A stretch of DNA of 64,000 nucleotides, taken from Oscillospiraceae bacterium. GTDB lineage: Bacteria; Bacillota; Clostridia; Oscillospirales; Oscillospiraceae. The notes beneath the pieces are model-generated. The model ran no database searches. It was not told the DNA's origin and saw only the letters and a list, made by a program, of their open reading frames with translations. Numbering within the stretch: the stretch's first letter is position 1; the number at the start of each line of letters is the position of its first letter. Positions 2,839-48,663 of the stretch are shown piece after piece. Location of the stretch: NCBI GenBank assembly GCA_016296235.1, contig JAEDJR010000001.1, positions 8,582-72,581 on the forward strand, in the 5' to 3' direction. A program made the position numbers and the translations under genes.

Positions 2839-3762
2839 ATGGTTGTGGGCTTTGATACCAGCAATTATACCACATCTATCGCTGCCTTTGACGGCGTCCG
2901 GGGAGAGAACTGCTCCCGCCTGCTGGACGTCCGGCCCGGAGAGCTGGGCCTGCGCCAGAGTGACGCCCTGTTTGCCCATGTAAAGCGCCTGCCGGAACTG
3001 GCAGACGCTTTGTTCCGGTCTGTGGGAACCGGAGATATCCGGGCCATTGGCGTCAGCACCCGTCCCAGGGCGGTGGAAGGCTCCTATATGCCTTGCTTTC
3101 TGGCCGGTGTGTCAGCGGCAAAGACCATGGCGTCCGCCCTTGGGGTGCCCTGCTATGCGTTCTCCCACCAGCAGGGGCATATTGCCGCCGCGCTCTGGTC
3201 GGCGGATCGGATGGATCTGATGAAGAAGCCCCATTTGGCGTGGCATCTTTCCGGCGGCACCACGGAGCTTCTCCTGGTGGAACCGGAGGGGCGAAACGTG
3301 CGGGCCACGCAGCTGGGCGGCACCAGCGATATTTCTGCCGGACAGATAATGGACCGCACCGGAAAGCTGCTGGGACTGGATTTTCCGGCTGGGAAGGCCC
3401 TGGACCGGCTTTGCGCCGATGCGAACGGGAAGGACTTTTTCCGGGTTAAAACCGCTGAATTGACGTTCTCCTTCTCCGGCCTGGAGAATAAGGTGAATCA
3501 ATATCATCAAGCGGGCCACAGTGCGGCGGATACCGCGTACTTTGCCGTATGCTCTGTCTGCGATGTGGTCGTCCGAACCACCAGAGACGCCCTGCAGAAA
3601 TACCCGGGCCTGCCGGTTGTGTTTTCCGGCGGCGTGGCCTCCAACTCCATGCTGCGGCAGCTGTGCAGCGAGTTTTCTCCCGTTTTTGCCAAGCCTGCCC
3701 TGTCCACGGATAACGCCATGGGCATTGCCGTTCTGACCTGGCTCCAGGAGGTGGGGGAATGA
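2839..3762 (+). CDS. TsaD/Kae1-like (peptidase M22/glycoprotease family) protein, paralog-like
   Basis: ASKHA-fold N-terminus (VGFDTSNYTTSIA). HxxxH-type motif SHQQGH. C-terminal GGVASNSMLR and TDNAMGIA motifs typical of the TsaD/Kae1 family. Shorter (307 aa) than canonical TsaD. Confidence 0.7.
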   Translation: MVVGFDTSNYTTSIAAFDGVRGENCSRLLDVRPGELGLRQSDALFAHVKRLPELADALFRSVGTGDIRAIGVSTRPRAVEGSYMPCFLAGVSAAKTMASALGVPCYAFSHQQGHIAAALWSADRMDLMKKPHLAWHLSGGTTELLLVEPEGRNVRATQLGGTSDISAGQIMDRTGKLLGLDFPAGKALDRLCADANGKDFFRVKTAELTFSFSGLENKVNQYHQAGHSAADTAYFAVCSVCDVVVRTTRDALQKYPGLPVVFSGGVASNSMLRQLCSEFSPVFAKPALSTDNAMGIAVLTWLQEVGE

Positions 3763-5208: not shown

Positions 5209-6064
5209 AATCACCTTGAAGCAATACCAGACGGCTGTGGAGGCGTACCTCAACGGCTGCTTTACCAAGGACCGGCCGCAGAAAAAGCTGTTTGAAGCCA
5301 TGCGCTACAGCCTGCTGGCCGGCGGAAAACGGATCCGTCCGGTTTTGGTGCTGGAGTTCTGCCGGATCTGCGGCGGCGACTGGGAGAAGGCCATGCCCTT
5401 CGCGGCTGCCATTGAAATGGTGCATACCTACAGCCTGATCCACGACGACCTGCCCTGCATGGACAATGACGATTACCGCCGGGGCCGGCTGACCAACCAC
5501 AAGGTCTTCGGCGAGGCCCAGGCCGTGCTGGCGGGGGACGGGCTGCTGACGGCCGCGTTCCATACGGCTGCCACAGCGGATGCCGCACCGGAAACTGTGG
5601 TGAAAATCATCGGGATCCTGTCCGGCTGCGCCGGAGAGCTGGGCATGGTGGGAGGACAACAGCTGGACATCGAAGGGGAGAACCAGAACCTCGATGAGGA
5701 GCAGGTGCATACCATTCACCGGCTGAAAACCGGAGCCCTGATTGCCGCGGCCTGCCGCATGGGCGCCACGGCCGGCGGTGCGTCGCCGGAACAGCTGGAG
5801 GCCGCACGCGTATATGCCGAGGCCATCGGTCTGGCCTTCCAGATCCGGGACGATATGCTGGACGTTCTGGGAGACGCAAAAAAGCTGGGGAAGGCCACCC
5901 ACGTAGACGGGAATAAGAATACCTTTGTATCTCTTTATGGCGTGGAGGGCTGCAGGGAACGGATTGAGGAGGAGAACCGGAAAGCCCTCGATGCACTCCG
6001 GGCTTTTGAAGACAATGCGTTCCTCACAGAGCTGACCGCCCGCCTGGCCAGCCGGGAATTCTGA
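5192..6064 (+). CDS. ispA: polyprenyl (farnesyl/geranyl) diphosphate synthase
   Basis: First Asp-rich motif LIHDDLPCMDNDDYRRG and second Asp-rich motif FQIRDDMLD. Follows xseAB as in many Firmicutes. Confidence 0.9.
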   Translation: MSREFEITLKQYQTAVEAYLNGCFTKDRPQKKLFEAMRYSLLAGGKRIRPVLVLEFCRICGGDWEKAMPFAAAIEMVHTYSLIHDDLPCMDNDDYRRGRLTNHKVFGEAQAVLAGDGLLTAAFHTAATADAAPETVVKIIGILSGCAGELGMVGGQQLDIEGENQNLDEEQVHTIHRLKTGALIAAACRMGATAGGASPEQLEAARVYAEAIGLAFQIRDDMLDVLGDAKKLGKATHVDGNKNTFVSLYGVEGCRERIEEENRKALDALRAFEDNAFLTELTARLASREF

Positions 6065-6071
6065 ACGGAAA

Positions 6072-6108
6072 ACACACAGCGCCGAAAAAGTCGGCACTGT
6101 GTGTTTTT
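6072..6108 (+). terminator. rho-independent terminator after ispA
   Basis: 14-nt arms ACACACAGCGCCGA/TCGGCACTGTGTGT (one mismatch) with an AAAAG loop, followed by TTTTT. Confidence 0.7.
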
Positions 6109-6469
6109 GAATCACTGCGACCTGAAATGGAGTACGGTGAATGGGCGCAAAGACAAAAAGTGGAAACCGAAGTGATAGGGAGCCACACTCGGGCGAACCC
6201 GGCGGCCAGTATCCTCAATGCATCGGTTTCCACCGAGGTCAGTGTAGCAGATTTGCTGGAAGCTGTCAAGGCGGGGATCCTGGCAGAATCGGAAGAAGGC
6301 GCAGCGCCGTTCTGGACCGGGACCATCAAAGACGGCGCCCCCCGGCGGCGATACACCTTCTGATATTACTCTATTACAGAATATGATGAATGTCAAGCGG
6401 AGAGATACCGGCTATCCGCTGGATGGTGTAGGTGCTGCAATGTACGAACTGTATGACCATGAATACCTC

Positions 6470-6498
6470 TTGTATATTCGTGAATAATGTGATATACT
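6470..6498 (+). promoter_or_regulatory. sigma-A-type promoter, extended -10 (TTGTAT-17-TGaTATACT), predicted to drive the OLE-like RNA
   Basis: Hexamers and the TG motif read directly. An alternative -10 TATAAT lies at 6503-6508. Confidence 0.45.
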
Positions 6499-6504
6499 TA
6501 CCTA

Positions 6505-7140
6505 TAATAATGGCGCAGTATCCTAGTCAATGCTGCTGGCTCCCAGGAAGGGCCTAAAAATCCTTTAAAGGGCATAACTGTGAAACCCATGGTGCCTGCT
6601 TCTTACGCCCAGTTTGGGGTGGGTGCTGAGGGAAGGCGTAGCAATTACGCCTGCGGAGGAAGGGCGGCCTTCAATGGCATGAAGTCCCCGACCCTGCCTT
6701 TGCGGAGACCTGCCATTGTGCAGGAGCGTACTCCCCGCGTGGTAATCGACTCCTGTACGAGACAGGATGTGAACCTGTATTGCGGTGTGAACGAGGCTTG
6801 CCTCTCAGCGCTGTGTGCAGTGTAGCCTGCCTTGCGTGAACAGATCGGGATTGCGGTGTCAGGCGTGCAGACCTCTGGCCGGAGGCGAAGCACGATATTG
6901 CCGTATGAAAGCCTGTTTGCAAAAGAGGATAAGAGTCAGCGTGCGTTGTTGTGGAAATCACCTAGGCTGTCTGTTACAGAGCAGATAAGGGATTGCAGTA
7001 CGGACTAAGTGGCAATCGGGTCTCTTTCAGGGCAACGGAAAGACGGCTGCTTTCAAGGGAAACCACTTCGCCGGCGACGGGAAGCAGCGGCCGGGGAAAG
7101 CCTACCCGACCTAAGCCGTAAGCTTAATCTTATCTGCTGC
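6505..7140 (+). ncRNA. ole: OLE (ornate large extremophilic) RNA candidate; 5' boundary uncertain
   Basis: ORF-poor ~1.1 kb gap inside a tightly packed operon. Sits in the canonical OLE context ispA-[RNA]-oapA-dxs-tlyA-nadK-argR-recN. The ~630 nt size fits. Several local and long-range helices are visible: 6635-6651, 6672-6679/6711-6718, 7046-7052/7082-7088, 6980-6989/7129-7138. Confidence 0.75.
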
Positions 7141-7168
7141 CATTATTTTTGTGTTTAGGAGGAATTGT

Positions 7169-7765
7169 GTGAAGCGCGGCGGCGAGAAGCGATCGAATAA
7201 AATCCGCATTCAGCCGGATTGGAAGTGGATTACCTCCATTTTCGGCATCACCATTGGAATCTCCGCAACCATGTCCCTGGTTTCCAATGAGGCGCTCTCC
7301 GGAAGTGGGCTGGCGGTATCCTTTGTGGTTCTGCTGGCCATTGTTTTCCTGGGAGTGATCTTTGACATCATCGGCGTTGCCGTGACGGCAGCCGATGAGA
7401 AGCCCTTTCATTCCATGGCTGCGAAGAAAATGCCGGAGGCTGTAGTTGCCATCCGGATGCTGCGCCGGGCCGAACGGGTGTCTTCGTTCTGCAACGATGT
7501 GGTGGGTGATATCTGCGGCGTTGTTTCCGGCTCTGCGTCTGCTGTCATCGCTGCCCGGGCCGTGGTGGGAATGCAGCCTATCTGGGCCCGACTGCTGCAG
7601 CTTCTGATGTCGGCCTTTGTTGCCGGTCTGACCGTAGGCGGAAAAGCTTTTGGCAAGTCCGTTGCCATGAATAACAGCACCGTCATCATCCATACGGCAG
7701 CGAAGCTGATATATTGGTTCAAATCTTTACCCAAGCGTCTGGTCCGGTGGCTGCGCCGGACTTGA
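7169..7765 (+). CDS. oapA: OLE-associated membrane protein OapA-like
   Basis: AGGAGG SD 6 nt before the GTG at 7169. About 198 aa with four predicted TM segments. Lies directly between the OLE-like RNA and dxs, as described for oapA. Confidence 0.7.
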   Translation: MKRGGEKRSNKIRIQPDWKWITSIFGITIGISATMSLVSNEALSGSGLAVSFVVLLAIVFLGVIFDIIGVAVTAADEKPFHSMAAKKMPEAVVAIRMLRRAERVSSFCNDVVGDICGVVSGSASAVIAARAVVGMQPIWARLLQLLMSAFVAGLTVGGKAFGKSVAMNNSTVIIHTAAKLIYWFKSLPKRLVRWLRRT

Positions 7766-7778
7766 CCGGAGGCTTTTC

Positions 7779-9617
7779 ATGCTCGAACAAATCCATTCAC
7801 GCTCCGATCTTCTGCGGCTTACCCCCGAGGAGGACCGGCAGCTTTGCGGAGAAATCCGCGATTTCCTGGTGCAGAATATCGCCCATACAGGCGGCCACCT
7901 GGCTTCTAACCTGGGGGTTGTGGAGCTGACGGTGGCGCTGCACAAGGTCTACAACACGGAATGCGACCGCCTGTTATTTGACGTTGGACATCAGTCCTAT
8001 GTCCATAAAATGCTGACGGGCCGCATGGAGCAGTTTGACACGCTCCGAACGTATGGCGGCCTGGCGGGGTTTCCGAAGCCGTCGGAAAGCATTCATGACG
8101 CATTTATTGCCGGCCATGCTTCCGACGCGGTGTCGGTTGGCCTGGGAATGGCCCGTGCCAGAACGCTGCAGAATCAGGACTATCAGGTGGCTGTGGTGCT
8201 GGGCGATGGCGCATTGACCGGCGGCCTGGCCTACGAGGGGCTCAACGACGCCGGCGCCAGTAAGGAGCCGCTGGTCGTGGTGCTCAATGACAACGGCATG
8301 TCCATTACGCCCAATGTGGGAGGAATTGCCAGACACCTGTCTCTGCTGCGGCTGAAGCCGGGCTATTTTGGCCTGAAGAAGGTCTACCGGCAGTTCACCA
8401 AAAACGTGCCCGGCGGAAAGCAGCTTTACCGGCTGACCCACCAGATGAAAGTGTGGCTCCGCCGGAAGTTGATCGGTGTGACTGTTTTTGAAGAAATGGG
8501 CTTTACCTATCTCGGGCCGGTGGACGGTCACGATGTGCAGAAGCTGACGTTTCTTTTGAAGGAAGCCCGTGAAATGCAGGAGCCGGTGCTCCTTCATGTG
8601 ATTACAAAGAAGGGGAAGGGCTATATCCCGGCAGAGGTGATGCCGGCAGCGTTCCACGGAGTCGGAAAGTTCAACCCGGCTACGGGCTATTCAAAAAAAG
8701 CGGCAGAACGTACTTTTTCCGAAACCTTTGGGCAGACCCTGTGCCAACTGGCTATGGACGACGCACGCATCTGTGCCATTACTGCGGCAATGGAGCAGGG
8801 AACGGGGCTGAGTCTGTTTGCCTCCACTTACCGGGAGCGGTTCTTTGACGTAGGCATTGCGGAGGGCCATGCGGTGTGTATGGCTGCCGGGTTGGCCAAG
8901 CAGGGAATGATTCCCGTCTTTGCCGTCTATTCCACCTTCCTCCAGCGCAGCTATGATATGCTGATTCATGACGTTTCCCTGCAGAAGCTCCATGTGGTGC
9001 TGGCCGTAGACCGGGCGGGACTGGTGGGAGAGGATGGGGAAACCCACCACGGTGTGTTCGATGTTGGATTTCTGCGGCAGGTGCCTGGGATGGAAATCTT
9101 CTGCCCGGCCAGCCAGGCCGAGCTGCGGCGGATGCTGCGAGCGGCGGTGCTGGAGTGCGGCGGGCCTGTGGCGGTGCGGTATCCCAAGGGCGGAGACGGC
9201 GCTTATCAGGACGAGGTCTGGCAGGATCGCCTGGCGCCGGATGCGCGACTCACCATTGTTACTTACGGCAGTACGATTCATGATGCTCTGGCTGCTGCGG
9301 AAATGCTGATTGGAAGTGGGATTCCGACAGATTTAATAAAACTGGATCAGATCTGGCCGCTTTCGATTGACGCCGCTGCCGCGTCGGTTAAAAAGACCGG
9401 CGCCCTTCTGGTGGTGGAAGAAACTGCGGAGGCCGGCTGCATCGGCACGGAGATTGTGACGCAGCTATCATCCCTGGGACTGTTTCCGTCCGTCAGGCTT
9501 CTGAATCTGAAGGATGGCATTGTCCCCCATGGAGATCTGAAAACCCTGCGGAGCCTGGCAGGAATTGATAAAGAAGGTATTTTCCGGGCCGGAAAGGAGC
9601 TGCTGCATGAAGAATAA
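7779..9617 (+). CDS. dxs: 1-deoxy-D-xylulose-5-phosphate synthase
   Basis: 612 aa. TPP-binding GDGALTGG...LNDN motif and the transketolase-like domain order. Confidence 0.95.
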   Translation: MLEQIHSRSDLLRLTPEEDRQLCGEIRDFLVQNIAHTGGHLASNLGVVELTVALHKVYNTECDRLLFDVGHQSYVHKMLTGRMEQFDTLRTYGGLAGFPKPSESIHDAFIAGHASDAVSVGLGMARARTLQNQDYQVAVVLGDGALTGGLAYEGLNDAGASKEPLVVVLNDNGMSITPNVGGIARHLSLLRLKPGYFGLKKVYRQFTKNVPGGKQLYRLTHQMKVWLRRKLIGVTVFEEMGFTYLGPVDGHDVQKLTFLLKEAREMQEPVLLHVITKKGKGYIPAEVMPAAFHGVGKFNPATGYSKKAAERTFSETFGQTLCQLAMDDARICAITAAMEQGTGLSLFASTYRERFFDVGIAEGHAVCMAAGLAKQGMIPVFAVYSTFLQRSYDMLIHDVSLQKLHVVLAVDRAGLVGEDGETHHGVFDVGFLRQVPGMEIFCPASQAELRRMLRAAVLECGGPVAVRYPKGGDGAYQDEVWQDRLAPDARLTIVTYGSTIHDALAAAEMLIGSGIPTDLIKLDQIWPLSIDAAAASVKKTGALLVVEETAEAGCIGTEIVTQLSSLGLFPSVRLLNLKDGIVPHGDLKTLRSLAGIDKEGIFRAGKELLHEE

Positions 9618-10413
9618 AGAGCGCTTGGATGTTCTGCTTGTGGAGCGGGGCTTCTTTGACAGCCGTGCCAAAGCGCAGGCTGTGATTATGAGCGGCGAGG
9701 TCTATGTGGACGGGCAGAAGGCCGACAAGGCCGGCGCGTCCTATGGCCCGGAAGCCGCCATTGAGGTCCGGGGCAGCGTTTGTCCCTATGTCAGCCGCGG
9801 CGGACTGAAGCTGGAAAAAGCGCTGCGTGATTTCGGCGTGGATCCCACCGGCTTTGTCTGCAGCGATTCCGGCGCTTCCACCGGAGGCTTCACGGACTGC
9901 CTGCTGCAGCAGGGAGCCAAAAAGGTCTTTGCCATCGATGTGGGATACGGACAGCTGGCATGGAAAATCCGAAGTGATCCCCGTGTGGTGGTCATGGAGC
10001 GAACCAACATCCGGTATGTGACACAGGAGATGCTGGGAGAGCCCTTGGACTTGTCAGTGGTGGACGTATCCTTTATCTCCCTGAAGCTGGTTCTGCCGGT
10101 CATCAAAACCCTTCTGGTTCCGGAACGCGGACAGGTTTTGTGTCTGATTAAGCCGCAGTTTGAAGCCGGCAAAGAAAAAGTCGGCAAAAAAGGTGTGGTG
10201 CGGGATCCGGCAGTTCACCGGGAGGTACTGGAAGCCTTTGTGGAATTGGCAGATTCTCTGGGCTTTACGATCCGAAATCTCACATTTTCTCCGGTAAAAG
10301 GGCCGGAAGGCAATATTGAATTTCTGGGTCATCTATCCCTGGCCGGGGGCGAAAACGCTGTTCCGGATTTGGAGCAGCTGGTGCAGCAGGCCCATGAGAC
10401 GCTGAAAGGGTAG
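9607..10413 (+). CDS. tlyA: TlyA family rRNA (cytidine-2'-O)-methyltransferase
   Basis: S4 domain (RLDVLLVERGFFDSRAKAQAVI) plus an FtsJ-like MTase (DSGASTGGFTDCLLQQGAKKVFAIDVG). Confidence 0.9.
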   Translation: MKNKERLDVLLVERGFFDSRAKAQAVIMSGEVYVDGQKADKAGASYGPEAAIEVRGSVCPYVSRGGLKLEKALRDFGVDPTGFVCSDSGASTGGFTDCLLQQGAKKVFAIDVGYGQLAWKIRSDPRVVVMERTNIRYVTQEMLGEPLDLSVVDVSFISLKLVLPVIKTLLVPERGQVLCLIKPQFEAGKEKVGKKGVVRDPAVHREVLEAFVELADSLGFTIRNLTFSPVKGPEGNIEFLGHLSLAGGENAVPDLEQLVQQAHETLKG

Positions 10414-10416
10414 GCT

Positions 10417-11277
10417 ATGAAGATTGTTTTAACGCCGAATCCCTATCGGGATCGGAATTTCAAATATGTGGAGCAGGCCGTTTCCATCCTCCAGGATGCC
10501 GGAATTGAAACCCGGGTCTGCCTGCCGTTTGATGTGGATAAAAACTTTGAGCTGCCAAAGGATTTCAAACTCAATGATCTGAATAGAGAGATCAAAAATG
10601 CGGACATGCTCATCTGCTTTGGCGGCGATGGTACAATTCTCCATTCCTCAAAAATAGCAACCCGCCATCATGTCCCGATTCTTGGCGTCAACATCGGAAC
10701 CATGGGCTTTATGGCGGAGCTGGAGGCAGGGGAGCTGCCGATGCTTGCCAATCTGGCGCAGGGAGACTACAGGGTCGAAAAACGGATGATGCTGCGGGTG
10801 ACCGTCCATAATGAGGGGCGGGAGCTGTTCGATGAGACAGCCCTGAACGATGCGGCGATTACCAAGGGCGCCATAGCCCGTGTCATTCAGATGTCTGTGG
10901 AGTGCGATGGTGTGGAAGCAATCAGCTGCGCCGGTGATGGGCTTGTGGTCTGCACGCCCACAGGCTCCACGGCTTATTCCATGTCTGCCGGCGGGCCGAT
11001 TGTGGAGCCTTCGGCGCAGAACATCATCATCACACCCATCTGCGCCCATGCATTCCAGGCCAAGGGAATTGTCACTGCGCCATGGCGGACCATCTCCATA
11101 CGCCTGGGGAAACTGGGACGGCGCAATGCCTTTTTGTCTGTGGACGGCGGCCGGGCCTTCCGGCTCAATGTGGGAGATGTGGTAACAGTCAGAAAAGCGG
11201 AGCAGGAAACCAGGCTGGTACGCCTGAAGGATACCAGCTTTTATGAGATTCTCAACAATAAATTCTATGTCCGGTGA
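10417..11277 (+). CDS. nadK: NAD+ kinase
   Basis: GGDGTIL motif and NDAAI...GDGLVVCTPTGSTAYSMSAGGPIV. Confidence 0.92.
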   Translation: MKIVLTPNPYRDRNFKYVEQAVSILQDAGIETRVCLPFDVDKNFELPKDFKLNDLNREIKNADMLICFGGDGTILHSSKIATRHHVPILGVNIGTMGFMAELEAGELPMLANLAQGDYRVEKRMMLRVTVHNEGRELFDETALNDAAITKGAIARVIQMSVECDGVEAISCAGDGLVVCTPTGSTAYSMSAGGPIVEPSAQNIIITPICAHAFQAKGIVTAPWRTISIRLGKLGRRNAFLSVDGGRAFRLNVGDVVTVRKAEQETRLVRLKDTSFYEILNNKFYVR

Positions 11278-11288
11278 GGAGATGCCCT

Positions 11289-11744
11289 ATGAAACCAAAC
11301 AGACAGGCAAAGATTCTCGAACTGATTGCTGCCAAAGACATTGAAACGCAGGAGCAGCTGCTCAACGAGTTGGATTCCTGCGGCTTCCCGGCAACGCAGG
11401 CGACCATATCCCGGGATATCAAGGAGCTGCGGCTGATTAAGGAACTGGGGCCCAATGGCACATACCGCTACAGCGCCGCTGCCAAGCAGCGGGAACACAG
11501 CAGCTCCGCAAAACTCAACAGCATTTTCAAACAATGTGTAATTGCCTGTGACCATGCACAGAACATCGTGGTCATCAAGACCATGCCTGGTTTGGCTTCT
11601 GCTGCCTGCTCCGCCATAGACGCCATGGGATCGGACGATGTGGTAGGCACCCTGGCGGGAGATGATACGGCCTTTCTGCTGCTGCGGGACACGGCTTCCG
11701 CCACCAGCCTGTGCACGGATATCCGCCGGCAGATCACGGGATAG
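11289..11744 (+). CDS. argR: arginine repressor ArgR/AhrC
   Basis: GAGGAG SD 8 nt upstream. N-terminal winged helix (RQAKILELI...TQATISRDIKELRL) and a C-terminal oligomerisation domain (GTLAGDDT). Confidence 0.9.
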   Translation: MKPNRQAKILELIAAKDIETQEQLLNELDSCGFPATQATISRDIKELRLIKELGPNGTYRYSAAAKQREHSSSAKLNSIFKQCVIACDHAQNIVVIKTMPGLASAACSAIDAMGSDDVVGTLAGDDTAFLLLRDTASATSLCTDIRRQITG

Positions 11745-11761
11745 GAAAGGACGCACATCCT

Positions 11762-13414
11762 ATGCTGAATTTGCTCCAGATTGAGAATATCGCTGTCATT
11801 GAACAGGCGGAAATCCAGTTCAGCGGCGGATTTAATGTTCTGACCGGTGAAACGGGCGCCGGTAAATCGATCGTGATTGACGCCATTTCCGCGATCCTGG
11901 GGGAGCGGGCCTACCGGGATGTTATTCGCACAGGCACGTCCAAAGCGGGTGTCCGGGCGGTGTTTTCCCAGGTGCCGGAGCTTTCCTGGTTTGAAGAAAA
12001 CGGCGTGGAGTATGACCCCGGGGAGCTGCTGATACAGCGGGAAATCTATGCGGACGGAAAGAACGTCTGCCGCGTCAACGGACGGCCTGTCACAGTGGCC
12101 ATCCTGAAAAAACTGGGCGGCAGCCTGGTGAATATCCACGGCCAGCACGATTCCCAGCAGCTCTTTGACGAGAGCAACCACTTGACTTATCTGGATTTGT
12201 TTGCGCAGAATCAGCAGCAGCGCAGGGAATATGAGGATGCGTTCCAGAAGGCCGAGGCTGTCCGGCGGGAAATCCGCAGACTGTCCATGGACGAGGGAGA
12301 GAAGCTGCGGCGGGTGGAGGCTTTGCAGTTTCAGATTCAGGAAATCGAACGGGCAGAGCTGCAGCCCGGGGAGGACGAGGCCCTGGAGACCCGGCGGAAG
12401 GTGCTGCAGAATTCGGAAAAGCTGGTGGATGGTCTGGCCCGGGCGGTCTCGGCTCTGTACGGCGATGAGGACCGGGACGGCGCCGCTGGCCTGCTCAGCG
12501 AGGCTGAGCACGCGTTGGGACGGATTACCCGCTATGACGACGGTCTGCGTGACGCTGCGGAGCGGCTGTCGGAGCTGTCGTCAGCCGTTCAGGATTTGTC
12601 GGAGGAGCTGCGGGACCGTGTGGACGAGCTGTCCTACTCCGGTGAGGAGCTGGAGCAGATTGAGAGCCGTTTGGACGTGATTCACCGCCTGCGCCGGAAG
12701 TACGGCGGCGATGTGGCGGCCATTCTGGAATACCTGGAGCGGGCCCGGCAGGAGCTGGATGAGATCGAGTTCGCCAGCGACCGGATTGAGCAGCTGACCA
12801 AACAGCTGCGGGGCTTGGATCGGGAAGCGGAGCGGGCGGGCCTTGCTCTGCGGGAGACGCGCCTGCAGGCCGCCAAGGAGCTGGAGCGGCGGCTGGCCGG
12901 GGAACTGGCGGCCCTGGATATGCCCCGGGCGCAATTTGTCTGCCAGTTTGAGTCCCAGCCCATGGGGGAGAGCGGCATGGATCTGGTGCGGTTTCTCATG
13001 ACGGCCAATGTGGGGGAAGCCCTGAAGCCCATGAGCAAGGTAGCCTCCGGCGGCGAGCTGGCCCGGATTATGCTGGCCATCAAGAACGTCCTGGCGGAGC
13101 AGGATTCCGTGGGAACTCTGATTTTTGACGAGGTGGATGCCGGTGTCAGCGGAAGGGCCGCCCAGAAGGTGGCGGAAAAGCTCCGGGCCGTGTCCCGGGG
13201 CAAGCAGGTGCTCTGCGTGACCCATCTGCCGCAGATTGCGGCGGCGGCGGACCACCACCTGCTCATCGCCAAATCCGAGCGCGGTGGCCGCACCTATACC
13301 CATGTGACGCCCCTGGACAAAGAGGGCCGCAAGCGGGAAATTGCCCGTATCATCGGCGGCGCAGAGATCACCGAGACGACCCTGAAAAGCGCAGAAGAAA
13401 TGCTTGCCAATTGA
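11762..13414 (+). CDS. recN: DNA repair protein RecN
   Basis: Walker A GETGAGKS, a long coiled coil and the C-terminal ASGGELARIMLAIK...LIFDEVDAGVSG. Confidence 0.95.
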   Translation: MLNLLQIENIAVIEQAEIQFSGGFNVLTGETGAGKSIVIDAISAILGERAYRDVIRTGTSKAGVRAVFSQVPELSWFEENGVEYDPGELLIQREIYADGKNVCRVNGRPVTVAILKKLGGSLVNIHGQHDSQQLFDESNHLTYLDLFAQNQQQRREYEDAFQKAEAVRREIRRLSMDEGEKLRRVEALQFQIQEIERAELQPGEDEALETRRKVLQNSEKLVDGLARAVSALYGDEDRDGAAGLLSEAEHALGRITRYDDGLRDAAERLSELSSAVQDLSEELRDRVDELSYSGEELEQIESRLDVIHRLRRKYGGDVAAILEYLERARQELDEIEFASDRIEQLTKQLRGLDREAERAGLALRETRLQAAKELERRLAGELAALDMPRAQFVCQFESQPMGESGMDLVRFLMTANVGEALKPMSKVASGGELARIMLAIKNVLAEQDSVGTLIFDEVDAGVSGRAAQKVAEKLRAVSRGKQVLCVTHLPQIAAAADHHLLIAKSERGGRTYTHVTPLDKEGRKREIARIIGGAEITETTLKSAEEMLAN

Positions 13415-15454: not shown

Positions 15455-15710
15455 CAGTCATACGCGGTGAAGGGAAGAAGTACCCGGTATTTCGCTTTCA
15501 GAGAGCCCCCGGATGGTGCAAGGAGGCAGGCGAACCCGGCGAACTACATCCCGGAGCGGCCTGCCTGAACCAGCAGTAGGGCGGGACGGGAGCGCCCGTT
15601 ACAGCGTTGGAGTCTCAGACTCCCCGAGACCGTCTTTGCGAGAAGGCGGCAAACTGAGGTGGTACCGCGTTCAGACGCCCTCTGTCCAAGGAGACAGGGG
15701 GCGTTTTATT
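15455..15710 (+). promoter_or_regulatory. T-box riboswitch leader, tyrosine specifier (UAC at 15545-15547)
   Basis: GAAGAAGUA specifier-loop 5' side. AGAGAG bulge (15500-15505). GGUGCAA distal loop. GAAC-UAC-A specifier. F-box CCGUUA (15596-15601). T-box AAACUGAGGUGGUACCGCG (15651-15669). Terminator stem 15675-15704 plus U-run. Confidence 0.9.
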
Positions 15711-16664
15711 ATGGACAAGCCGATGGACGTGCTGCGGGATTTCCCGGTGCGCAAAAGCAAGAAACAAAAAGAGCAATTCCGGGCGGCGGTCCGGTCTTAT
15801 GCGGAGAGCTTGGGATATACGTATCAGGAGGAGCCGGGAAGCTTCAGCAGCCGCAATGTGGTGCTGGGCGACCCGGAACAGGCGGAGATTCTCATCACGG
15901 CCCACTATGACACCTGCGCCCATTTGCCGTTTCCCAATCTGATTACGCCGTGCAATCTGCTGCTGTTTCTCCTGTACCAGCTGCTTCTGGTGGTTGTGCT
16001 GCTGGCGGTGGTCTTCGGCGTCTCCATCGGATTGGGAATCCTGCTGCAAAGTCCGATGGCAGGTATCGCCGGCTATTATCTGCTTCTGATTGCTCTGGTC
16101 TGGTTCATGCTCTGCGGCCCGGCCAACCGGAATAACGCAAACGACAACACCTCCGGCGTGGTGACGGTGCTGGAAACCGCCGCCGGCCTGCCGCCTGACC
16201 TGCGGGATAAGGTCTGCTTCGTCCTCTTCGACCTGGAAGAAGCTGGCCTGGTAGGCTCTTCGTCTTACCGAAAGCGCCACCGCAAGGCCATCGGCCGGCA
16301 GTGGATGTTCAACCTGGACTGTGTGGGAGACGGGGATGAAATTCTGCTGTTTCCTTCCAAAGCCATCAAGAAAAACGGAGCTATGACAGATTGGCTCCGG
16401 GCATTCTGTCCGCCGGCAGGAAAGAAGACTCTGACTGTTCGGGATCGGGGGTTTGCCTTTTACCCATCTGACCAGGCGGGCTTTCCCCTGGGCGTCGGCG
16501 TGGCTGCGCTGCACCGAAGCTCCTGGGCGGGTCTGTATCTGGGCCGGATTCATACCAACCGGGATACCGTCCTGGAGGAAGCAAACGTCAGACTACTGCG
16601 GGATTATCTGCTTAGAATCATTGAAAATACGCATAGAAAGGATACAAATTATGACACTCTATGA
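15711..16664 (+). CDS. membrane-anchored M28 family metallopeptidase
   Basis: M28 metal-ligand motifs in order: [41 protein letters not shown]. Two TM helices are inserted after the first motif. Confidence 0.75.
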
Positions 16665-17874
16665 AGAACTGGTCGCCCGCGGCCTCATCGCCCAGGTGAC
16701 CAACGAGGAAGAAATCAAGGAAATGATTAACAACGGCAAGGCCACTTTCTATATTGGCTTTGACTGCACCGCCGACAGCCTCACCGCAGGCCATTTCATG
16801 GCCCTGACCCTGATGAAGCGGCTGCAGATGGCCGGCAACAAACCCATCGCTTTGATTGGCGGCGGTACCACCATGATCGGCGATCCCTCCGGCCGGACGG
16901 ATATGCGCAAGATGCTGACCAAGGAGGACATCGACCACAACGCTGCCTGCTTCAAGCGCCAGATGGAGCGGTTCATTGACTTCTCCGAGGGCAAGGCTCT
17001 GATGATTAACAATGCCGATTGGCTGTTGAACCTGAACTATGTGGAAATGCTCCGGGATGTGGGCGCCTGCTTCTCCGTGAACAATATGCTCCGGGCCGAG
17101 TGCTACAAGCAGCGCATGGAAAAGGGACTGAGCTTCCTGGAATTCAACTATATGATTATGCAGTCCTACGATTTCTACTACCTGTTCCAGCATTACAACT
17201 GCAACATGCAGTTCGGCGGCGACGACCAGTGGAGCAATATGCTGGGCGGCACGGAGCTGATCCGCCGGAAGCTTGGTAAGGACGCCCACGCCATGACCAT
17301 CACCCTGCTGACGGACTCCCAGGGCAAGAAGATGGGCAAGACCGCCGGCAACGCCGTGTGGTTGGATCCCAATAAGACCAGTCCCTTTGACTTCTACCAG
17401 TACTGGCGCAATGTGGACGATGCCGATGTCATGAAGTGCATCCGCATGCTGACCTTCCTGCCCATGGAGGAGATTGAGGCCATGGCCGCCTGGGAGGGCA
17501 GCCAGCTGAACAAGGCCAAGGAGATTCTGGCCTTCGAGCTGACCAAAATGGTTCACGGCGAAGAAGAGGCTGTCAAGGCACAGACCGCCGCCAAGGCCCT
17601 GTTCTCCGGCGGCGCCGATGACAGCAATATGCCCACCACGGCCCTGTCCGAGGATCAGCTGACCGACGGCGCGATCGGCGTCATGGATCTGCTGGTGGCC
17701 TGCTCTCTGGCAGCCAGCAAATCCGAAGCCCGGCGCCTGGTGCAGCAGGGCGGCGTCTTTGCAAACGACGAAAAGGTGGCATCTATTGACGCGAAGTTCA
17801 CTGCCGACCAGCTCCGGGACGGCTTGAAGATCCGAAAAGGCAAAAAGGTCTTCCACAAGGCCACTTTGGCATAA
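16651..17874 (+). CDS. tyrS: tyrosine--tRNA ligase
   Basis: HIGH-type motif (TADSLTAGH), KMSKS-type motif (KMGKT) and a C-terminal S4 domain. 14-nt overlap with the upstream gene. Confidence 0.95.
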
Positions 17875-19259: not shown

Positions 19260-20639
19260 ATGAAGAATAATCCGGTACGTTTTGCAGCCTGGCTGCTGTT
19301 GGCTGCAATGCTTCTGACGGTTCCGGCAATGGCTGTGAATCGGGGCAGCGAATGGGATAACCCCTATGCCGATGTGACCGCGGAGATGTGGAGCTATCGG
19401 TATATTCGGGAGCTGAGCCAGGCCGGCGTTCTACCGGAGAGCGAAACATTTGGCGGCGCCGGCTATGAAACCCGGATTGGGTTTGTGACGTGTCTCTATG
19501 CCTTGGATCGGGCCTTGGGAGGGAAAGCTGTAACCGTGAAGGAAGCGCCCTTCGAGGATGTCCCGGCGGAGGATGCCGGTGCTGCAGCAGTAACCTGGGC
19601 CAAAAAACACGGCGTGGTCAACGGCGTCAGCGAGACGCATTTCGCCCCCAAAGCCAACCTGACCAGGGAAGATATCTGTACAATATTGATCCGCTATGCC
19701 AATTATTCCCGCATTCGCCTGGCCAAGAAATTCGAACCGTCTCAGTTTTCCGATTCCTTAAAAATCAGCGGATATGCCAGAACGGCGGTGGCAGCGTGCC
19801 AGATGGCCGGAATTGTCAATGGGTATGAAAACGGCATGTTCCGTCCCGCCTGGAATATCACCCGGGAGGAATGCGCTGCGGTTCTCTGGAGAATCATGGA
19901 CGCGGCGAAGAATAAGGCTTCCGGTGAGCTGGTTGAGACCGCAGCCGGCGCATATGATGACCTGTATGACAGCTTCCTGCCGCCTTTTGATCCCACAACG
20001 CCGGCCGGGAAGGAAGTGGACTTGTCCTATTTTGACAATGTGGCCATCGTGGGAGATTCCGTCTCCCTGATGCTGCAGTACTATTGCGCCTCCACCAAGG
20101 CCCTGGGGAATGCCACATTCCTGTGCGCCGGCAGCCTCAGCGCCACAAACGCCCTGTGGGACGTCAGCGATCAATCGGTACATCCCTCATACCAGGGAAA
20201 GAAGGTCCTGGTGGAGGACGGTGTGGCCCAATCCGGGGCCAAGATCGTATACCTGATGCTGGGGATCAATAACATTGGCTATGGCATTGACCGGGCCACC
20301 GGAGACATGGTGACGCTCATTGACCGGATATTAGAGAAGTCACCCGATGTTTCGATCGTGATCGAGTCTGTTACACCCATGGCTGAGAGCAGCAACATTC
20401 TGACCAACCAGCTCAACAATGCGCAGATTCAGGCCTATAATACCAGGATGCAGGAGATTTGCTCCGAACGTGGTTGGTATTATGTCAACGTGGCCGAGGT
20501 TGTTACCGATAAAAACGGCTGGCTCAAGGCTGAGTACTGCAGCGATGGCGGCTCCATGGGTATCCATTTTACCACCAGCGCAGCGAAGGTATGGGTGGAC
20601 TATCTGAAAACCCATGTTCCTGCGGCGCTTCTCAACTGA
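19260..20639 (+). CDS. secreted SLH-domain protein with C-terminal SGNH/GDSL-like hydrolase/acyltransferase domain
   Basis: Signal peptide. Three SLH-like repeats (e.g. VTWAKKHGVVNGVSETHFAP..LTREDI). GDS block (VAIVGDSVS), GINN block and a C-terminal D..H. Confidence 0.75.
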   Translation: MKNNPVRFAAWLLLAAMLLTVPAMAVNRGSEWDNPYADVTAEMWSYRYIRELSQAGVLPESETFGGAGYETRIGFVTCLYALDRALGGKAVTVKEAPFEDVPAEDAGAAAVTWAKKHGVVNGVSETHFAPKANLTREDICTILIRYANYSRIRLAKKFEPSQFSDSLKISGYARTAVAACQMAGIVNGYENGMFRPAWNITREECAAVLWRIMDAAKNKASGELVETAAGAYDDLYDSFLPPFDPTTPAGKEVDLSYFDNVAIVGDSVSLMLQYYCASTKALGNATFLCAGSLSATNALWDVSDQSVHPSYQGKKVLVEDGVAQSGAKIVYLMLGINNIGYGIDRATGDMVTLIDRILEKSPDVSIVIESVTPMAESSNILTNQLNNAQIQAYNTRMQEICSERGWYYVNVAEVVTDKNGWLKAEYCSDGGSMGIHFTTSAAKVWVDYLKTHVPAALLN

Positions 20640-20670
20640 CCTGTTATCAATCGGAAGAAAGGTTCCTGCT

Positions 20671-21282
20671 ATGAAAAAACGGATTATAGTTTTGCTGTTG
20701 ATTTTGTCGATCCTGGCTGTTTTTGCAGCCTGCGGAGAAAAGGCTGCTCCCGTAGATACCCCGGCGCCGGAAGCACCCGCGCCGGAACAAGCCGCGCCTG
20801 CTGCGCCAGAGCCGGAAGAAGCATCGGAGGAAGAGATCCTGCCCGAAGAACCGTCCCGGGATCCGGAGCAGGAAGAGCCGGAAGCTCCGGTGACGGTCGA
20901 CCTTGACCAGGTGCGTACCGCCATGATGGACCAGCTGGAAATCGCCGACCCGTTCCTCCTGGACACCGATGCGCTGCTGAACCTCTACGGCATCGACAGC
21001 GCCTGGGTGGCCCAATCTGCCAGTTTTGTCACCATGTCCGGCACATTCCCTGACGAGGTCATCCTGACTGAGGCTGTGGATGCGGATGCCGCGGCCTCCA
21101 TCGCGCAGTGCCTGCAGAACCGTCTCGACGAAGTTCTGGTGCAGTCCAAGAGCTATGATGCGGAAAACTACGCCGCTGCGCAGGCTTGCCAGGTGCGCAC
21201 TGACGGACTGTATGTTTGTCTGCTGCTTTCCCCCAAGCAGGCGGAGATGGCTGAGATCTACCAGAGTCTGATTCAAGACTGA
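20671..21282 (+). CDS. DUF4358-like lipoprotein
   Basis: Lipobox LAVFAAC after MKKRIIVLLL. Pro/Ala/Glu-rich linker, then a globular domain. Family name is from memory. Confidence 0.55.
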   Translation: MKKRIIVLLLILSILAVFAACGEKAAPVDTPAPEAPAPEQAAPAAPEPEEASEEEILPEEPSRDPEQEEPEAPVTVDLDQVRTAMMDQLEIADPFLLDTDALLNLYGIDSAWVAQSASFVTMSGTFPDEVILTEAVDADAAASIAQCLQNRLDEVLVQSKSYDAENYAAAQACQVRTDGLYVCLLLSPKQAEMAEIYQSLIQD

Positions 21283-21321
21283 ACCTTCTGGCGATAACGC
21301 CGGTCATTTTGGAGGGCGTCC

Positions 21322-22683: not shown

Positions 22684-22695
22684 GAGGTGCAGACC

Positions 22696-48271: not shown

Positions 48272-48318
48272 GGCAAAAAGAACAAGGCAGCATGACTCGT
48301 GCCATGCTGCCTTGTTCT
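48272..48318 (-). terminator. rho-independent terminator of rnpB
   Basis: Perfect 16-bp stem (48279-48294 / 48303-48318) followed on the minus strand by CTTTTTG. Confidence 0.8.
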
Positions 48319-48663
48319 GCGATCGGGTCTGTAAGCCGGGTTCTGTAATCGACAGTCATCTATCTAGACGCAGTGTTGCCGCTGCGTTCCAGCCACCTTC
48401 TCGGAAGCAGCCGGGCCAGCCTTGCTTCCTCTGCGGTGTTGCTCCGGATAGAGTTTACAGCGATGGATGCTTCCACACCATCGGGGGCGCTCTTACCGCA
48501 CCTTTCCACCCTTACCCCACGAAAGCGGGGCGGTATCTCTCTGTTGCACTTTTCCTGAAGTCGCCTTCGGCGGGCGTTACCCGTTATCCTTGCCCTGTGG
48601 AGCCCGGACTTTCCTCATGTACGGCCTTTCGGCACTGCACACGCGACTGTCCGACCTGGTCGC
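48319..48663 (-). ncRNA. rnpB: RNase P RNA (bacterial type A-like)
   Basis: The minus strand contains universally conserved GAGGAAAGTCCGGGCTCCACAGGGCA (CR-I region) and ACAGAACCCGGCTTACAG (CR-V region). Terminal P1-like pairing. Own promoter and terminator. Confidence 0.92.

What the first reader, a model, noticed from the sequence alone, without database searches (positions are those of the whole stretch)
6505..7140. OLE-like large structured ncRNA in the canonical ispA / oapA / dxs slot
A ~1.1 kb stretch (6065-7168) interrupts an otherwise overlapping, tightly packed gene series. It has no credible ORF: only short, mutually overlapping frames on both strands, none with an SD.

The 3' ~630 nt are dense in complementarity:
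- GGCGTA/TACGCC hairpin with a GCAAT loop (6635-6651)
- CAATGGCA/TGCCATTG (6672-6679 / 6711-6718)
- GCTGCTT/AAGCAGC (7046-7052 / 7082-7088)
- a 10-bp domain-closing helix AGCAGATAAG/CTTATCTGCT (6980-6989 / 7129-7138)

The flanking order xseA-xseB-ispA-[RNA]-small 4-TM protein-dxs-tlyA-nadK-argR-recN is the published context of OLE RNA and its membrane partner OapA in Bacillus halodurans and anaerobic Firmicutes. The expected size (about 600 nt) fits. OLE is a known but mechanistically unresolved RNP, and a copy in a GC-rich sporeformer is a useful comparative data point.
Basis: partly seen in the sequence, partly recalled or inferred. Interest (0 to 1): 0.7.

Follow-up and report, generated by a model that had tools for sequence, protein, structure and literature searches.

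The report
OLE RNA gene with partner oapA

Summary
Confirmed, and already known. Rfam's OLE model (RF01071) matches window 6494-7159 on the + strand at 408.8 bits (threshold 50, E 1e-116), over the whole model.

- **Pairing:** 143 of 159 consensus pairs are canonical in this sequence. In 64 related OLEs the structure is 87.7% paired, with compensatory changes at 136 of 193 pairs.
- **Not coding:** substitutions show no codon periodicity.
- **OapA:** the 198-aa ORF at 7169-7765 has four hydrophobic segments, an invariant DxxxD motif, basic termini and a CNNM-like predicted fold. Its homologues lie directly downstream of an OLE in all 77 loci with enough upstream sequence.
- **Gene order:** xseA-xseB-ispA-[OLE-oapA]-dxs-tlyA-nadK-argR-recN is verified.
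of the four helices, one is a consensus helix and one is a real clade-specific extra hairpin. The other two are not supported; one of them is a 3-nt slipped register.

Local details:
- A terminator follows ispA.
- A non-conserved 400-nt spacer follows it.
- OLE has its own extended -10 promoter, conserved in 61 of 64 relatives.
- A 7-bp hairpin (6634-6652) is inserted in J5/6, where the OapC k-turn forms in H. halodurans.

The host is an uncultured gut Clostridia bacterium, Oscillospiraceae-like.

The parts
6068..6108 (+). Intrinsic terminator of the xseA-xseB-ispA unit: a 12+5 bp hairpin followed by UUUUU.
   Evidence: folding 6062-6115 gives -27.6 kcal/mol, with the hairpin at 6068-6108 followed by a U run. 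One search finds the inner stem. The sequence is identical in four other assemblies.
6109..6469 (.). Species-specific spacer with no conserved ORF and no detectable RNA family.
   Evidence: - Only the last ~30 nt before OLE are shared with the nearest relatives.
- A 116-aa ORF called in contigs L001-L004 is broken in the window by a -1 and a +1 homopolymer indel.
- Pfam and NCBIfam give no hit.
- Rfam gives no hit at E<=1.
- The fold z-score is -1.3.
6470..6498 (+). Predicted sigma-A-type promoter of OLE. The -35 is TTGTAT (6470-6475), followed by a 17-nt spacer, TG (6490-6491) and the -10 TATACT (6493-6498). The expected transcription start is about 6505.
   Evidence: - Read directly from the sequence.
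- The same TTGNNN-N13-15-TGnTAnnnT arrangement precedes P1 in 61 of 64 related loci.
- Transcription has not been measured.
6494..7159 (+). OLE RNA as matched by Rfam RF01071. The structural core runs from P1 to P1, 6506-7147.
   Evidence: -: 408.8 bits, E 1.2e-116, model positions 1-616 of 616.
- 143 of 159 consensus pairs are canonical.
- covariation in 64 relatives.
- 152 of 182 consensus-derived pairs recur in the MFE fold.
6506..6539 (+). 5' strands of the long-range helices. They pair as follows:
- P1 6506-6514 with 7139-7147
- P2 6515-6518 and 6523-6526 with 6962-6970
- P3 6528-6533 with 6943-6948
- P3.1 6534-6539 with 6936-6941

P3 plus P3.1 gives 12 bp.
   Evidence: These pairs are not in the Rfam structure line. 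I added them by hand and tested them. In P1, 7 of 9 pairs are compensatory. In P3/P3.1, 12 of 12 pairs have double changes. P2 is invariant. The 12-bp P3+P3.1 length matches PMC12265935.
6547..6566 (+). P4 hairpin with the conserved A-rich loop CCUAAAAAUCC (6553-6563). This loop is a dimer contact in the cryo-EM structures.
   Evidence: The loop is identical in 58 of 64 relatives. Its role is taken from PMC12265935 and PMC12286853.
6586..6632 (+). P5/P5.1 hairpin with the conserved loop ACGCCCAGU (6605-6613).
   Evidence: helix 6, 90% paired; 54 of 64 identical.
6634..6652 (+). Clade-specific extra hairpin in J5/6: 7 bp from A6634-U6652 to A6640-U6646, with loop GCAAU. It has no counterpart in the Rfam consensus.
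   Evidence: - It is shown as an insertion.
- It is present in 26 of 64 relatives, 96.5% paired, with 5 of 7 pairs compensatory (helix 7).
- It co-occurs with altered J4a/5 and J5/6 sequences.
6655..6701 (+). P6/P6.1 hairpin with the conserved GGG/CCC pairs (6662-6664 with 6692-6694) and the loop CAAUGGCAUG (6672-6681).
   Evidence: In H. halodurans the G-C pairs are determinants of bS21 binding (PMC12054373).
6709..6929 (+). P7 (6709-6766), P8 (6775-6820) and the long P9 arm (6829-6929). P9 carries the palindromic loop UGGCCG (6876-6881). P7 and P8 carry local insertions at 6734-6747 and 6790-6806.
   Evidence: The GGCC core is present in 62 of 64 relatives. Because P7 and P8 are present, this is a full-length OLE and not variant 1 or 2 (PMC11332333).
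6951..7138 (+). 3' domain (domain 2):
- small hairpins at 6951-6961 and 6971-6979
- an 11-bp closing helix, 6980-6990 with 7128-7138
- inner helices 6999-7003/7116-7120 and 7016-7021/7104-7109
- the P13 hairpin with GNRA loop GCAA (7032-7035)
- P14/P14.1 with GNRA loop GCGA (7074-7077)
   Evidence: (helices 19-24, 82-99% paired). The GNRA loops are the OapB contact sites in H. halodurans (PMC7936274).
7157..7162 (+). Shine-Dalgarno AGGAGG of oapA. It lies 6 nt before the GTG start and inside the 3' tail of the Rfam OLE match.
7169..7765 (+). oapA: a 198-aa membrane protein that is the partner of OLE.
   Evidence: - An identical 198-aa protein is present in public assemblies.
- Four hydrophobic segments and K/R-rich termini and central loop.
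- D110-x3-D114 is invariant in a 46-sequence family alignment.
- OLE lies upstream in all informative loci.
- 38 of 46 family members weakly match Pfam CNNM.
- The five best Foldseek PDB hits are CorB/CorC.
- Third-codon-position substitutions are in excess.
7779..13414 (+). Downstream genes of the conserved cluster: dxs, tlyA, nadK, argR and recN.

Best explanation
Window 6494-7159 (+) encodes a full-length OLE (ornate, large, extremophilic) RNA. 7169-7765 encodes its membrane partner OapA.

**Shown here**
- Sequence and secondary structure fit the OLE family over the whole model.
- The helices covary in relatives.
- The region is not coding.
- All loops used for RNA dimerisation (P4 A-rich loop, P5.1 and P6.1 loops, P9 GGCC loop) are intact.
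- The GNRA loops of P13 and P14.1 are intact.
- The downstream protein has the OapA hallmarks.

**Inferred from the sequence**
- The upstream operon ends at a strong terminator after ispA.
- OLE is transcribed from its own extended -10 promoter, starting at about 6505, the first base of P1.
- oapA, and probably dxs and the genes after it, are read through from the same transcript. Its ribosome-binding site lies in the U-rich 3' tail of OLE and there is no room for another promoter.

**Inferred from published work on H. halodurans and Clostridium OLE RNAs**
- The RNA folds into two domains and dimerises.
- An OapA dimer holds it at the cell membrane. OapA is a distant CNNM/MpfA-like protein and a putative divalent-cation transporter.
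- The particle helps the cell cope with stress: short-chain alcohols, cold, excess Mg2+ and poor carbon sources.
- My preferred mechanism is that the RNA acts as a regulatory or sensing module on OapA-mediated ion handling. It would stand in for the cytoplasmic CBS and CorC domains that MpfA has and OapA lacks. This last step is a published hypothesis, not a demonstrated mechanism.
For: **The RNA**
- RF01071 at 408.8 bits against a threshold of 50, E 1.2e-116, model positions 1-616 of 616, + strand only.
- 143 of 159 consensus pairs are canonical.
- on 64 related OLEs, 87.7% of cells are paired against 75.5% in shuffles and at most 45% when partners are slid. 136 of 193 pairs have double changes. 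0 of 500 shuffles reach any of the measures.
- no 3-nt periodicity in OLE (144/126/143) against 199/89/470 in oapA. The internal ORFs differ in length by non-multiples of 3 in relatives.
- the P4, P5.1, P6.1, P9, P13 and P14.1 loops match the family.

**OapA**
- OLE lies directly upstream of the OapA homologue in 20 of 20 loci (Rfam) and 77 of 80 loci (nhmmer). The 3 misses have under 200 nt of upstream sequence.
- DxxxD motif, 4 hydrophobic segments, basic clusters.
- CNNM-like at family and fold level.

**Transcription signals and context**
- the terminator and the conserved promoter.
- the canonical gene neighbourhood, including Asp23/yqhY, nusB, xseAB, ispA, dxs, tlyA, nadK, argR and recN.

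**Literature**
- PMC12265935, PMC11332333, PMC9723947, PMC12054373, PMC7936274 and PMC12286853.
Against: Nothing contradicts the identification. Several limits apply.
- No expression, size, abundance or localisation data exist for this organism.
- The promoter and the read-through into oapA are predictions.
- I could not align the protein directly to H. halodurans OapA (WP_010898928.1), because that sequence was not on hand.
- The window protein gives no Pfam or NCBIfam hit on its own and no PDB sequence hit.
- The structural model is of moderate confidence (pLDDT 70). The Foldseek matches have modest E-values (0.003-0.25) and TM-scores of 0.4-0.55.
- The J5/6 segment that forms the OapC k-turn in H. 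halodurans is replaced here by a hairpin. That part of the published mechanism may therefore not transfer.
- The biochemical function of OLE RNA is unknown in any organism.
Confidence: 0.97

Rival explanations
1. The structured region is mainly a cis-acting leader of the oapA-dxs operon. It would control downstream expression by attenuation or processing, rather than being a free-standing RNA that forms a particle.
For: - The 3' tail of the OLE match overlaps the oapA ribosome-binding site, and there is no separate promoter for oapA.
- The closing helices are followed by a U-rich tract (7143-7156) that could act as a partial terminator.
- OLE is co-transcribed with neighbouring genes in H. halodurans (PMC12265935).
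Against: - In H. halodurans OLE accumulates as an abundant discrete RNA that binds OapA, OapB, OapC and bS21 and localises to the membrane (PMC12265935).
- A 640-nt RNA with about 25 covarying helices and conserved intermolecular dimer contacts is far more than a leader needs.
- In some relatives, 200-900 nt separate OLE from oapA (L041, L042, L058, L065).
Confidence: 0.05
2. The locus is a decaying or non-functional OLE copy, a relic left after the organism lost the need for the particle.
For: - The score (409 bits) is lower than for Clostridium species (529-557 bits).
- 16 consensus pairs are non-canonical.
- There are three insertions relative to the model.
- A strain-variable spacer lies upstream.
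Against: - All Oscillospiraceae-like relatives score 385-455 bits, so the lower score is a lineage property.
- The invariant nucleotides of the family are all retained.
- The insertions are themselves paired, and the J5/6 hairpin covaries.
- oapA is intact and under purifying selection.
- The promoter is conserved.
- The OLE sequence is nearly identical in the four independent metagenome contigs (one search shows L001 aligned with the window).
Confidence: 0.01
3. The region encodes one or more small proteins: the 81-96-aa ORFs at 6580-6825 (+), 6645-6893 (-) and 6671-6961 (-).
For: ORFs of 81-96 codons exist on both strands. Several stay open in two or three of the four nearest relatives.
Against: - Substitutions show no codon-position bias in any of the frames.
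- Lengths differ by non-multiples of three between relatives.
- The ORFs have no Shine-Dalgarno sequence and overlap each other.
- The whole stretch is explained by a 409-bit covariance-model match.
Confidence: 0.01

Closest known systems
OLE RNA, full-length type (Rfam RF01071; Puerta-Fernandez et al. 2006; Fernando and Breaker 2024, PMC11332333)
   Same: - It matches the whole model, and all consensus helices from P1 to P15 are present and covarying.
- The conserved loops are present: P4 A-rich, P5.1, P6.1, P9 GGCC, and the P13 and P14.1 GNRA loops.
- P3 plus P3.1 gives 12 bp.
- It sits between ispA and oapA-dxs in the usual gene cluster.
- The host is an anaerobic member of Bacillota.
   Different: - It is 642-666 nt long rather than about 610.
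- An extra 7-bp hairpin is inserted in J5/6, and J4a/5 and J5/6 are altered. This feature is shared with 25 of the 63 other OLEs in the alignment.
- P7 and P8 carry local extensions.
- It is preceded by a terminator and its own promoter, whereas in H. halodurans it is embedded in one polycistronic transcript.
OapA of Halalkalibacterium halodurans (BH2780, WP_010898928.1)
   Same: - It is the immediate downstream neighbour of ole on the same strand.
- It is about 200 aa long with four predicted membrane helices.
- It has the DxxxD motif and clusters of basic residues.
- It has distant CNNM-like sequence and fold similarity. CorB 7M1U is among the top structural matches, as reported for the H. 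halodurans model in PMC11332333.
   Different: No direct alignment to the reference protein was possible here. The window protein falls below Pfam CNNM detection, although most of its family members reach it weakly.
OLE RNA variants 1 and 2 (TANB77 and RF39 clades; PMC11332333)
   Same: They also come from uncultured gut Bacillota and also depart from the consensus.
   Different: Those variants shorten or lose P7-P9 and the OapB site. This RNA keeps all of them and adds a hairpin elsewhere, in J5/6.
MpfA / CorB / CorC CNNM-family Mg2+ transporters
   Same: The transmembrane fold of the OapA model resembles the CNNM domain. Published work proposes overlapping functions.
   Different: OapA has four membrane helices, not three. 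It has DxxxD and lacks the CBS and CorC domains. It works with an RNA.

Membership tests
OLE RNA (RF01071) | Covariance-model score above the curated threshold, on the strand of the flanking genes | tested here: met
   408.8 bits against 50, E 1.2e-116, + strand. There is no hit on the - strand.
OLE RNA (RF01071) | Full-length architecture of about 600 nt, with P7, P8 and P9 present | tested here: met
   model positions 1-616 of 616. P7 (17 pairs), P8 (13 pairs) and the P9 arm (35 pairs) are all present.
OLE RNA (RF01071) | Consensus helices are formed in this sequence and maintained by compensatory changes in relatives | tested here: met
   143 of 159 pairs canonical; 87.7% paired, 136 of 193 pairs with double changes, 0 of 500 shuffles, and slid controls at most 45% paired.
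OLE RNA (RF01071) | Highly conserved loops used for dimerisation: the P4 A-rich loop, the complementary P5.1 and P6.1 loops, and the palindromic P9 loop | tested here: met
   CCUAAAAAUCC, ACGCCCAGU, CAAUGGCAUG and UGGCCG are present. Their roles are taken from PMC12265935 and PMC12286853. Dimerisation itself was not tested.
OLE RNA (RF01071) | OapB site: a GNRA tetraloop on P13 with a bulged stem, plus a second GNRA loop on P14.1 | tested here: met
   GCAA at 7032-7035 and GCGA at 7074-7077. The P13 stem has an asymmetric interruption at 7028-7030/7037-7038. Binding was not tested, and no oapB gene was looked for outside the window.
OLE RNA (RF01071) | [quoted passage not shown] | tested here: inconclusive
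   - J4a/5 keeps C6578, a 3-nt bulge and G6582-A6583.
- J5/6 (UUAAGG in hairpin-less OLEs) is replaced by AAGG-hairpin-CCUGCGG.
- I could not draw a standard k-turn by hand.
OLE RNA (RF01071) | oapA gene immediately downstream | tested here: met
   The oapA start at 7169 is 10 nt after the end of the Rfam match.
OLE RNA (RF01071) | Host in Bacillota, typically anaerobic or extremophilic | tested here: met
   - The nearest genome records are Clostridia and Oscillospiraceae MAGs from animal guts.
- spoIIIA genes are in the window.
OLE RNA (RF01071) | Abundant stable transcript, membrane localisation and stress phenotypes | not testable with these tools
   This needs RNA-seq or Northern blots, fractionation and genetics.
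OapA | Encoded directly downstream of ole, on the same strand, across species | tested here: met
   20 of 20 loci by Rfam. By nhmmer, 77 of 80 loci; the other 3 have under 200 nt of upstream sequence.
OapA | Four predicted transmembrane helices | tested here: met
   hydrophobic segments at about 21-39, 52-70, 111-133 and 138-158. Searches give long helices at the same places.
OapA | DxxxD motif | tested here: met
   D110-V-V-G-D114. Both aspartates are invariant in 46 diverse and in 68 further family members.
OapA | Cluster of positively charged residues on the cytoplasmic face | tested here: met
   7 K/R in residues 1-20, 7 in residues 72-106 and 6 in residues 183-198. The topology is inferred from the positive-inside rule.
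OapA | Distant relative of the CNNM domain in sequence and fold | tested here: met
   - 38 of 46 family members hit PF01595 (best E 2.3e-7). The window protein itself does not.
- the top five PDB matches are 7M1T, 7M1U and 7CFF (probability 0.99-1.00, TM 0.38-0.55), from a model with pLDDT 70.
OapA | Significant direct similarity to H. halodurans OapA (WP_010898928.1) | not tested
No OapA chain is in the PDB copy.
OLE variant 1 / variant 2 | Shortened or missing P7-P9, with a missing OapB site | tested here: not met
   P7, P8, P9 and the P13 GNRA loop are all present.

The most novel reading that the evidence does not exclude
The 7-bp hairpin inserted in J5/6 occurs together with changes in the flanking joining regions:
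- J4a/5: AUCGAUGAAGUCC becomes A[AGU]C[UG][GA]UGAA[ACU]CC.
- J5/6: UUAAGG becomes UGCGG.

This combination would define an undescribed structural subclass of full-length OLE RNA, found in part of the Oscillospiraceae-like Clostridia. In this subclass the switch between the P5/P6 stems and the OapC or bS21 k-turn would be rebuilt. It could become a three-way junction, or OapC binding could be lost.

The held papers describe natural variation only from J6/7 to P8 and at the OapB site.
Probability: 0.25. Interest if true: 0.35.

Novelty: already known. Interest (0 to 1): 0.15.

Why it matters
OLE RNA is one of the largest bacterial non-coding RNAs whose biochemical function is still unknown, so the family matters. 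This copy adds little. Any Rfam-based annotation would find it, and thousands of representatives are already catalogued.

Three modest points are useful to specialists:
- In these gut Clostridia the gene carries its own strongly conserved extended -10 promoter just after a terminator. That makes it a clean transcription unit for expression studies.
- A subclass carries a covarying hairpin exactly where the OapC and bS21 binding switch lies. It offers a natural variant for testing how essential that switch is.
- The OapA family alignment confirms the invariant residues D66, D110, D114, K159 and K163 as candidates for ion or RNA contacts.

Tried and rejected
- **Exact k-mer complementarity and MFE z-score as evidence of structure.** They are not above chance, or only weakly so. 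The covariance model and covariation carry the case.
They show no covariation. The second is a slipped register of the consensus.
- **PDB sequence searches.** Neither the protein nor the family profile gives a hit.
- **First AlphaFold run.** With a shallow alignment it gave pLDDT 57, and I discarded it. A deeper alignment gave pLDDT 70.
- **The spacer 6065-6493.**
  - It has no protein family.
  - It has no Rfam match.
  - It has no significant fold.
  - It is not conserved in relatives.
  - Its ORF is frame-broken between strains.
  - I treat it as non-functional or strain-specific DNA.
- **The conserved promoter block.** I read CTTGTATATTCA(TGAATA) by eye against the consensus sites for ArgR (ARG box), Rex, Fur/Zur and sigma-G/sigma-F. 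None fitted convincingly, and I make no claim.
- **Drawing the k-turn.** I tried to draw a standard k-turn or a k-junction for the hairpin-bearing J4a/5-P5-J5/6 region by hand. No convincing C-helix emerged, so this is left open.
- **Partner genes in the window.** I looked for oapB (KOW/SBB), oapC (L7Ae-like) or rpsU among the ORFs I scanned. None was found, and not all ORFs were scanned.
- **Literature search.** A search for OLE RNA together with Oscillospiraceae returned nothing relevant.
Full report
**Observation.** The interval between the stop of ispA (6064) and the next convincing gene (start at 7169) holds only short, overlapping ORFs on both strands. The number of exact complementary k-mers in 6494-7159 is not unusual. 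There are 6 eight-mers against 2.9 +/- 2.4 in shuffles, with 28 of 200 shuffles as high, and 1 ten-mer against 0.2. The minimum-free-energy fold is only 2.4 sd better than shuffles. The description is accurate, but it would not establish a structured RNA on its own.

**Identification.** A scan of the whole window against Rfam 15 gives one match to OLE (RF01071) at 6494-7159 on the + strand. It scores 408.8 bits against a gathering score of 50, with E 1.2e-116, and covers model positions 1-616 of 616. I transferred the consensus structure line to window coordinates. Of its 159 pairs, 143 are canonical in this sequence. The Rfam line omits the long-range helices P1, P2, P3 and P3.1, so I added them by hand:
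- P1: 6506-6514 with 7139-7147
- P2: 6515-6518 and 6523-6526 with 6962-6970
- P3: 6528-6533 with 6943-6948
- P3.1: 6534-6539 with 6936-6941

P3 plus P3.1 gives 12 bp, the length quoted for the proposed membrane-spanning stem (PMC12265935). Of the 182 consensus-derived pairs, 152 recur in the unconstrained MFE fold.

**Related sequences.** A profile of 46 diverse homologues of the downstream protein retrieved 80 loci from the GTDB species genomes. Most are Oscillospiraceae or unclassified Clostridia MAGs from animal guts. The nearest are 'Candidatus Avilachnospira sp.' at 70-72% protein identity, and the set also includes Clostridium subterminale, C. rectalis and C. neuense. Rfam finds a full-length OLE directly upstream, on the same strand, in 20 of 20 loci tested, at 385-557 bits. 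nhmmer with the window's OLE finds it in 77 of 80 loci, and the three misses have fewer than 200 nt of upstream sequence.

On a MAFFT alignment of 64 full-length OLEs, the structure comprised the Rfam pairs, P1-P3.1 and the extra hairpin. It gave the following results:
- 87.7% of cells are paired, against 75.5% in column shuffles.
- Paired cells fall to 37-45% when the 3' partners are slid by 1-3 columns.
- 136 of 193 pairs show changes on both sides.
- None of 500 shuffles reaches any measure.

Against the four nearest relatives, substitutions in OLE fall evenly on the three phases (144/126/143). In oapA they fall 199/89/470. The internal ORFs differ in length by non-multiples of three. The region is therefore a structured RNA and not coding.

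- 6980-6989/7129-7138 is the consensus 11-bp helix that closes the 3' domain. It is 97.9% paired, and 10 of 11 pairs are compensatory.
- 6635-6651 is shown by Infernal as an insertion, but it is real. A 7-bp hairpin (6634-6652) is present in 26 of the 64 sequences. It is 96.5% paired, and 5 of 7 pairs have compensatory changes (helix 7).
- 7046-7052/7082-7088 is displaced by 3 nt from the consensus helices (C7044-G7093..U7051-A7086 and C7066-G7084..). It is paired in only 51.9% of cells, and sliding by +3 restores the covariation signal.
- 6672-6679/6711-6718 joins the conserved P6.1 loop to the 5' strand of P7. It is paired in about 80% of cells only because both sides are conserved, and it has no compensatory support. 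In the cryo-EM structures the P6.1 loop pairs with the P5.1 loop of the other RNA in the dimer (PMC12265935).

**Functional elements.** The conserved elements are all present in the window:
- the A-rich P4 loop CCUAAAAAUCC
- the P5.1 loop ACGCCCAGU
- the P6.1 loop CAAUGGCAUG
- the palindromic P9 loop UGGCCG
- the GNRA loop of P13 (GCAA)
- the GNRA loop of P14.1 (GCGA)

According to the literature these are the dimer contacts (PMC12265935, PMC12286853) and the OapB contact sites (PMC7936274). P7, P8 and P9 are present, so this is the full-length type and not the reduced variants 1 or 2 (PMC11332333).

**The protein.** The ORF starts at GTG 7169, six bases after AGGAGG (7157-7162). It encodes 198 residues, identical to a protein seen on 15 public contigs. 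Its features are as follows:
- It has four hydrophobic segments.
- It has basic clusters at both termini and in the central loop.
- The motif D110-VVG-D114 is invariant across the family, together with D66, K159 and K163.
- Pfam and NCBIfam give nothing for this protein alone.
- 38 of 46 family members weakly match the CNNM domain PF01595.
- Several database relatives carry that annotation.

An AlphaFold model from a 68-sequence alignment reached pLDDT 70 and pTM 0.56. Its five best PDB matches are the CNNM transporters CorB (7M1T, 7M1U) and CorC (7CFF), with Foldseek probability 0.99-1.00 but modest E-values and TM-scores. This reproduces what Fernando and Breaker reported for H. halodurans OapA. 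I could not make a direct alignment to that reference protein.

**Surroundings.** The gene order is:

spoIIIAF-(AG)-AH, Asp23/yqhY, nusB, a TsaD-like gene, xseA, xseB, ispA, [OLE, oapA], dxs, tlyA, nadK, argR, recN.

A strong terminator follows ispA at 6068-6108, at -27.6 kcal/mol. The next 360 nt or so are specific to this species. They differ between strains by frame-shifting indels, match no family and do not fold unusually well.

Immediately before P1 lies a promoter: TTGTAT, 17 nt, then TGaTATACT (6470-6498). The same arrangement precedes P1 in 61 of 64 related loci, with consensus CTTGtATATTca..aa...TaTG.TATaAT. I infer that OLE is a primary transcript starting at about 6505, and that oapA is expressed by read-through.

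[quoted passage not shown] That segment is also adjacent to the P6 duplex bound by bS21 (PMC12054373). Hairpin-bearing OLEs differ systematically in J4a/5 and in the residues that replace UUAAGG. I could not draw a standard k-turn for them. I found no description of this variant in the papers held, but I could not see the published figures or alignments.

**Verdict.** The element is a member of a long-known, curated RNA family that standard annotation detects, in a lineage where it is universal among the relatives sampled. Interest is low. The only possibly new element is the J5/6 hairpin subclass.

Noticed in passing
window 6470-6498, and the 60 nt upstream of OLE in L001-L081: A conserved extended -10 promoter sits directly before P1 in 61 of 64 OLE loci. 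It includes a conserved block CTTGTATATTCA. In 14 loci there is an inverted repeat TATTCATGAATA between -35 and -10 that could be an operator. No known regulator site fitted by eye.
   Followed up: partly
window 6109-6469: The spacer is species-specific. A 116-aa ORF called in pig-gut contigs (L001-L004) is frame-broken in the window by a -1 indel in an A-run (~6155) and a +1 indel in a C-run (~6339). A small hairpin at 6189-6202 differs between strains by compensatory changes (CGGG/CCCG against CCGGA/UCCGG). Two promoter-like sites with a perfect TTGACA lie on the minus strand (6396->6368, 6269->6241).
   Followed up: partly
window 6570-6660; alignment A3 columns 84-176: OLEs with the J5/6 hairpin also have a different J4a/5 (for example AACUGUGAAACCC instead of AUCGAUGAAGUCC) and UGCGG instead of UAAGG. 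The OapC k-turn region therefore changes as a block.
   Followed up: partly
L070 2238-2911; L049 and L051; L075 and L079; L065: Other natural OLE variants appear among the relatives:
- L070 has a ~50-nt insertion in place of the P13 GNRA loop.
- L049 and L051 lack the P13 loop region.
- L075 and L079 carry long P7 insertions.
- L065 has about 940 nt between OLE and oapA.
   Followed up: no
window 15458-15685 (+): A T-box leader (117 bits) lies upstream of a tyrosyl-tRNA synthetase gene (ORF 16453-17874).
   Followed up: no
window 48316-48662 (-): Bacterial RNase P RNA, class A (265.9 bits).
   Followed up: no
window 2839-3762 (+): A TsaD/Kae1-like protein scores far below the TsaD equivalog cut-off (131 bits against 296). 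It sits between nusB and xseA, where folD sits in Bacillus according to my recollection of that gene order. It may be a divergent paralogue.
   Followed up: no
window 20614-23817 (+): A DUF4358 - MBOAT - DHHW gene trio that looks like an alginate or teichoic-acid O-acyltransferase system. It follows an SLH-domain GDSL lipase (19260-20639).
   Followed up: no
window 6672-6679 / 6711-6718: The conserved P6.1 loop (CAAUGGCA) is complementary to the conserved 5' strand of P7 in about 80% of cells across 64 OLEs, but without any covariation. This could be a coincidence of two conserved segments or an alternative pairing. It is unresolved.
   Followed up: partly
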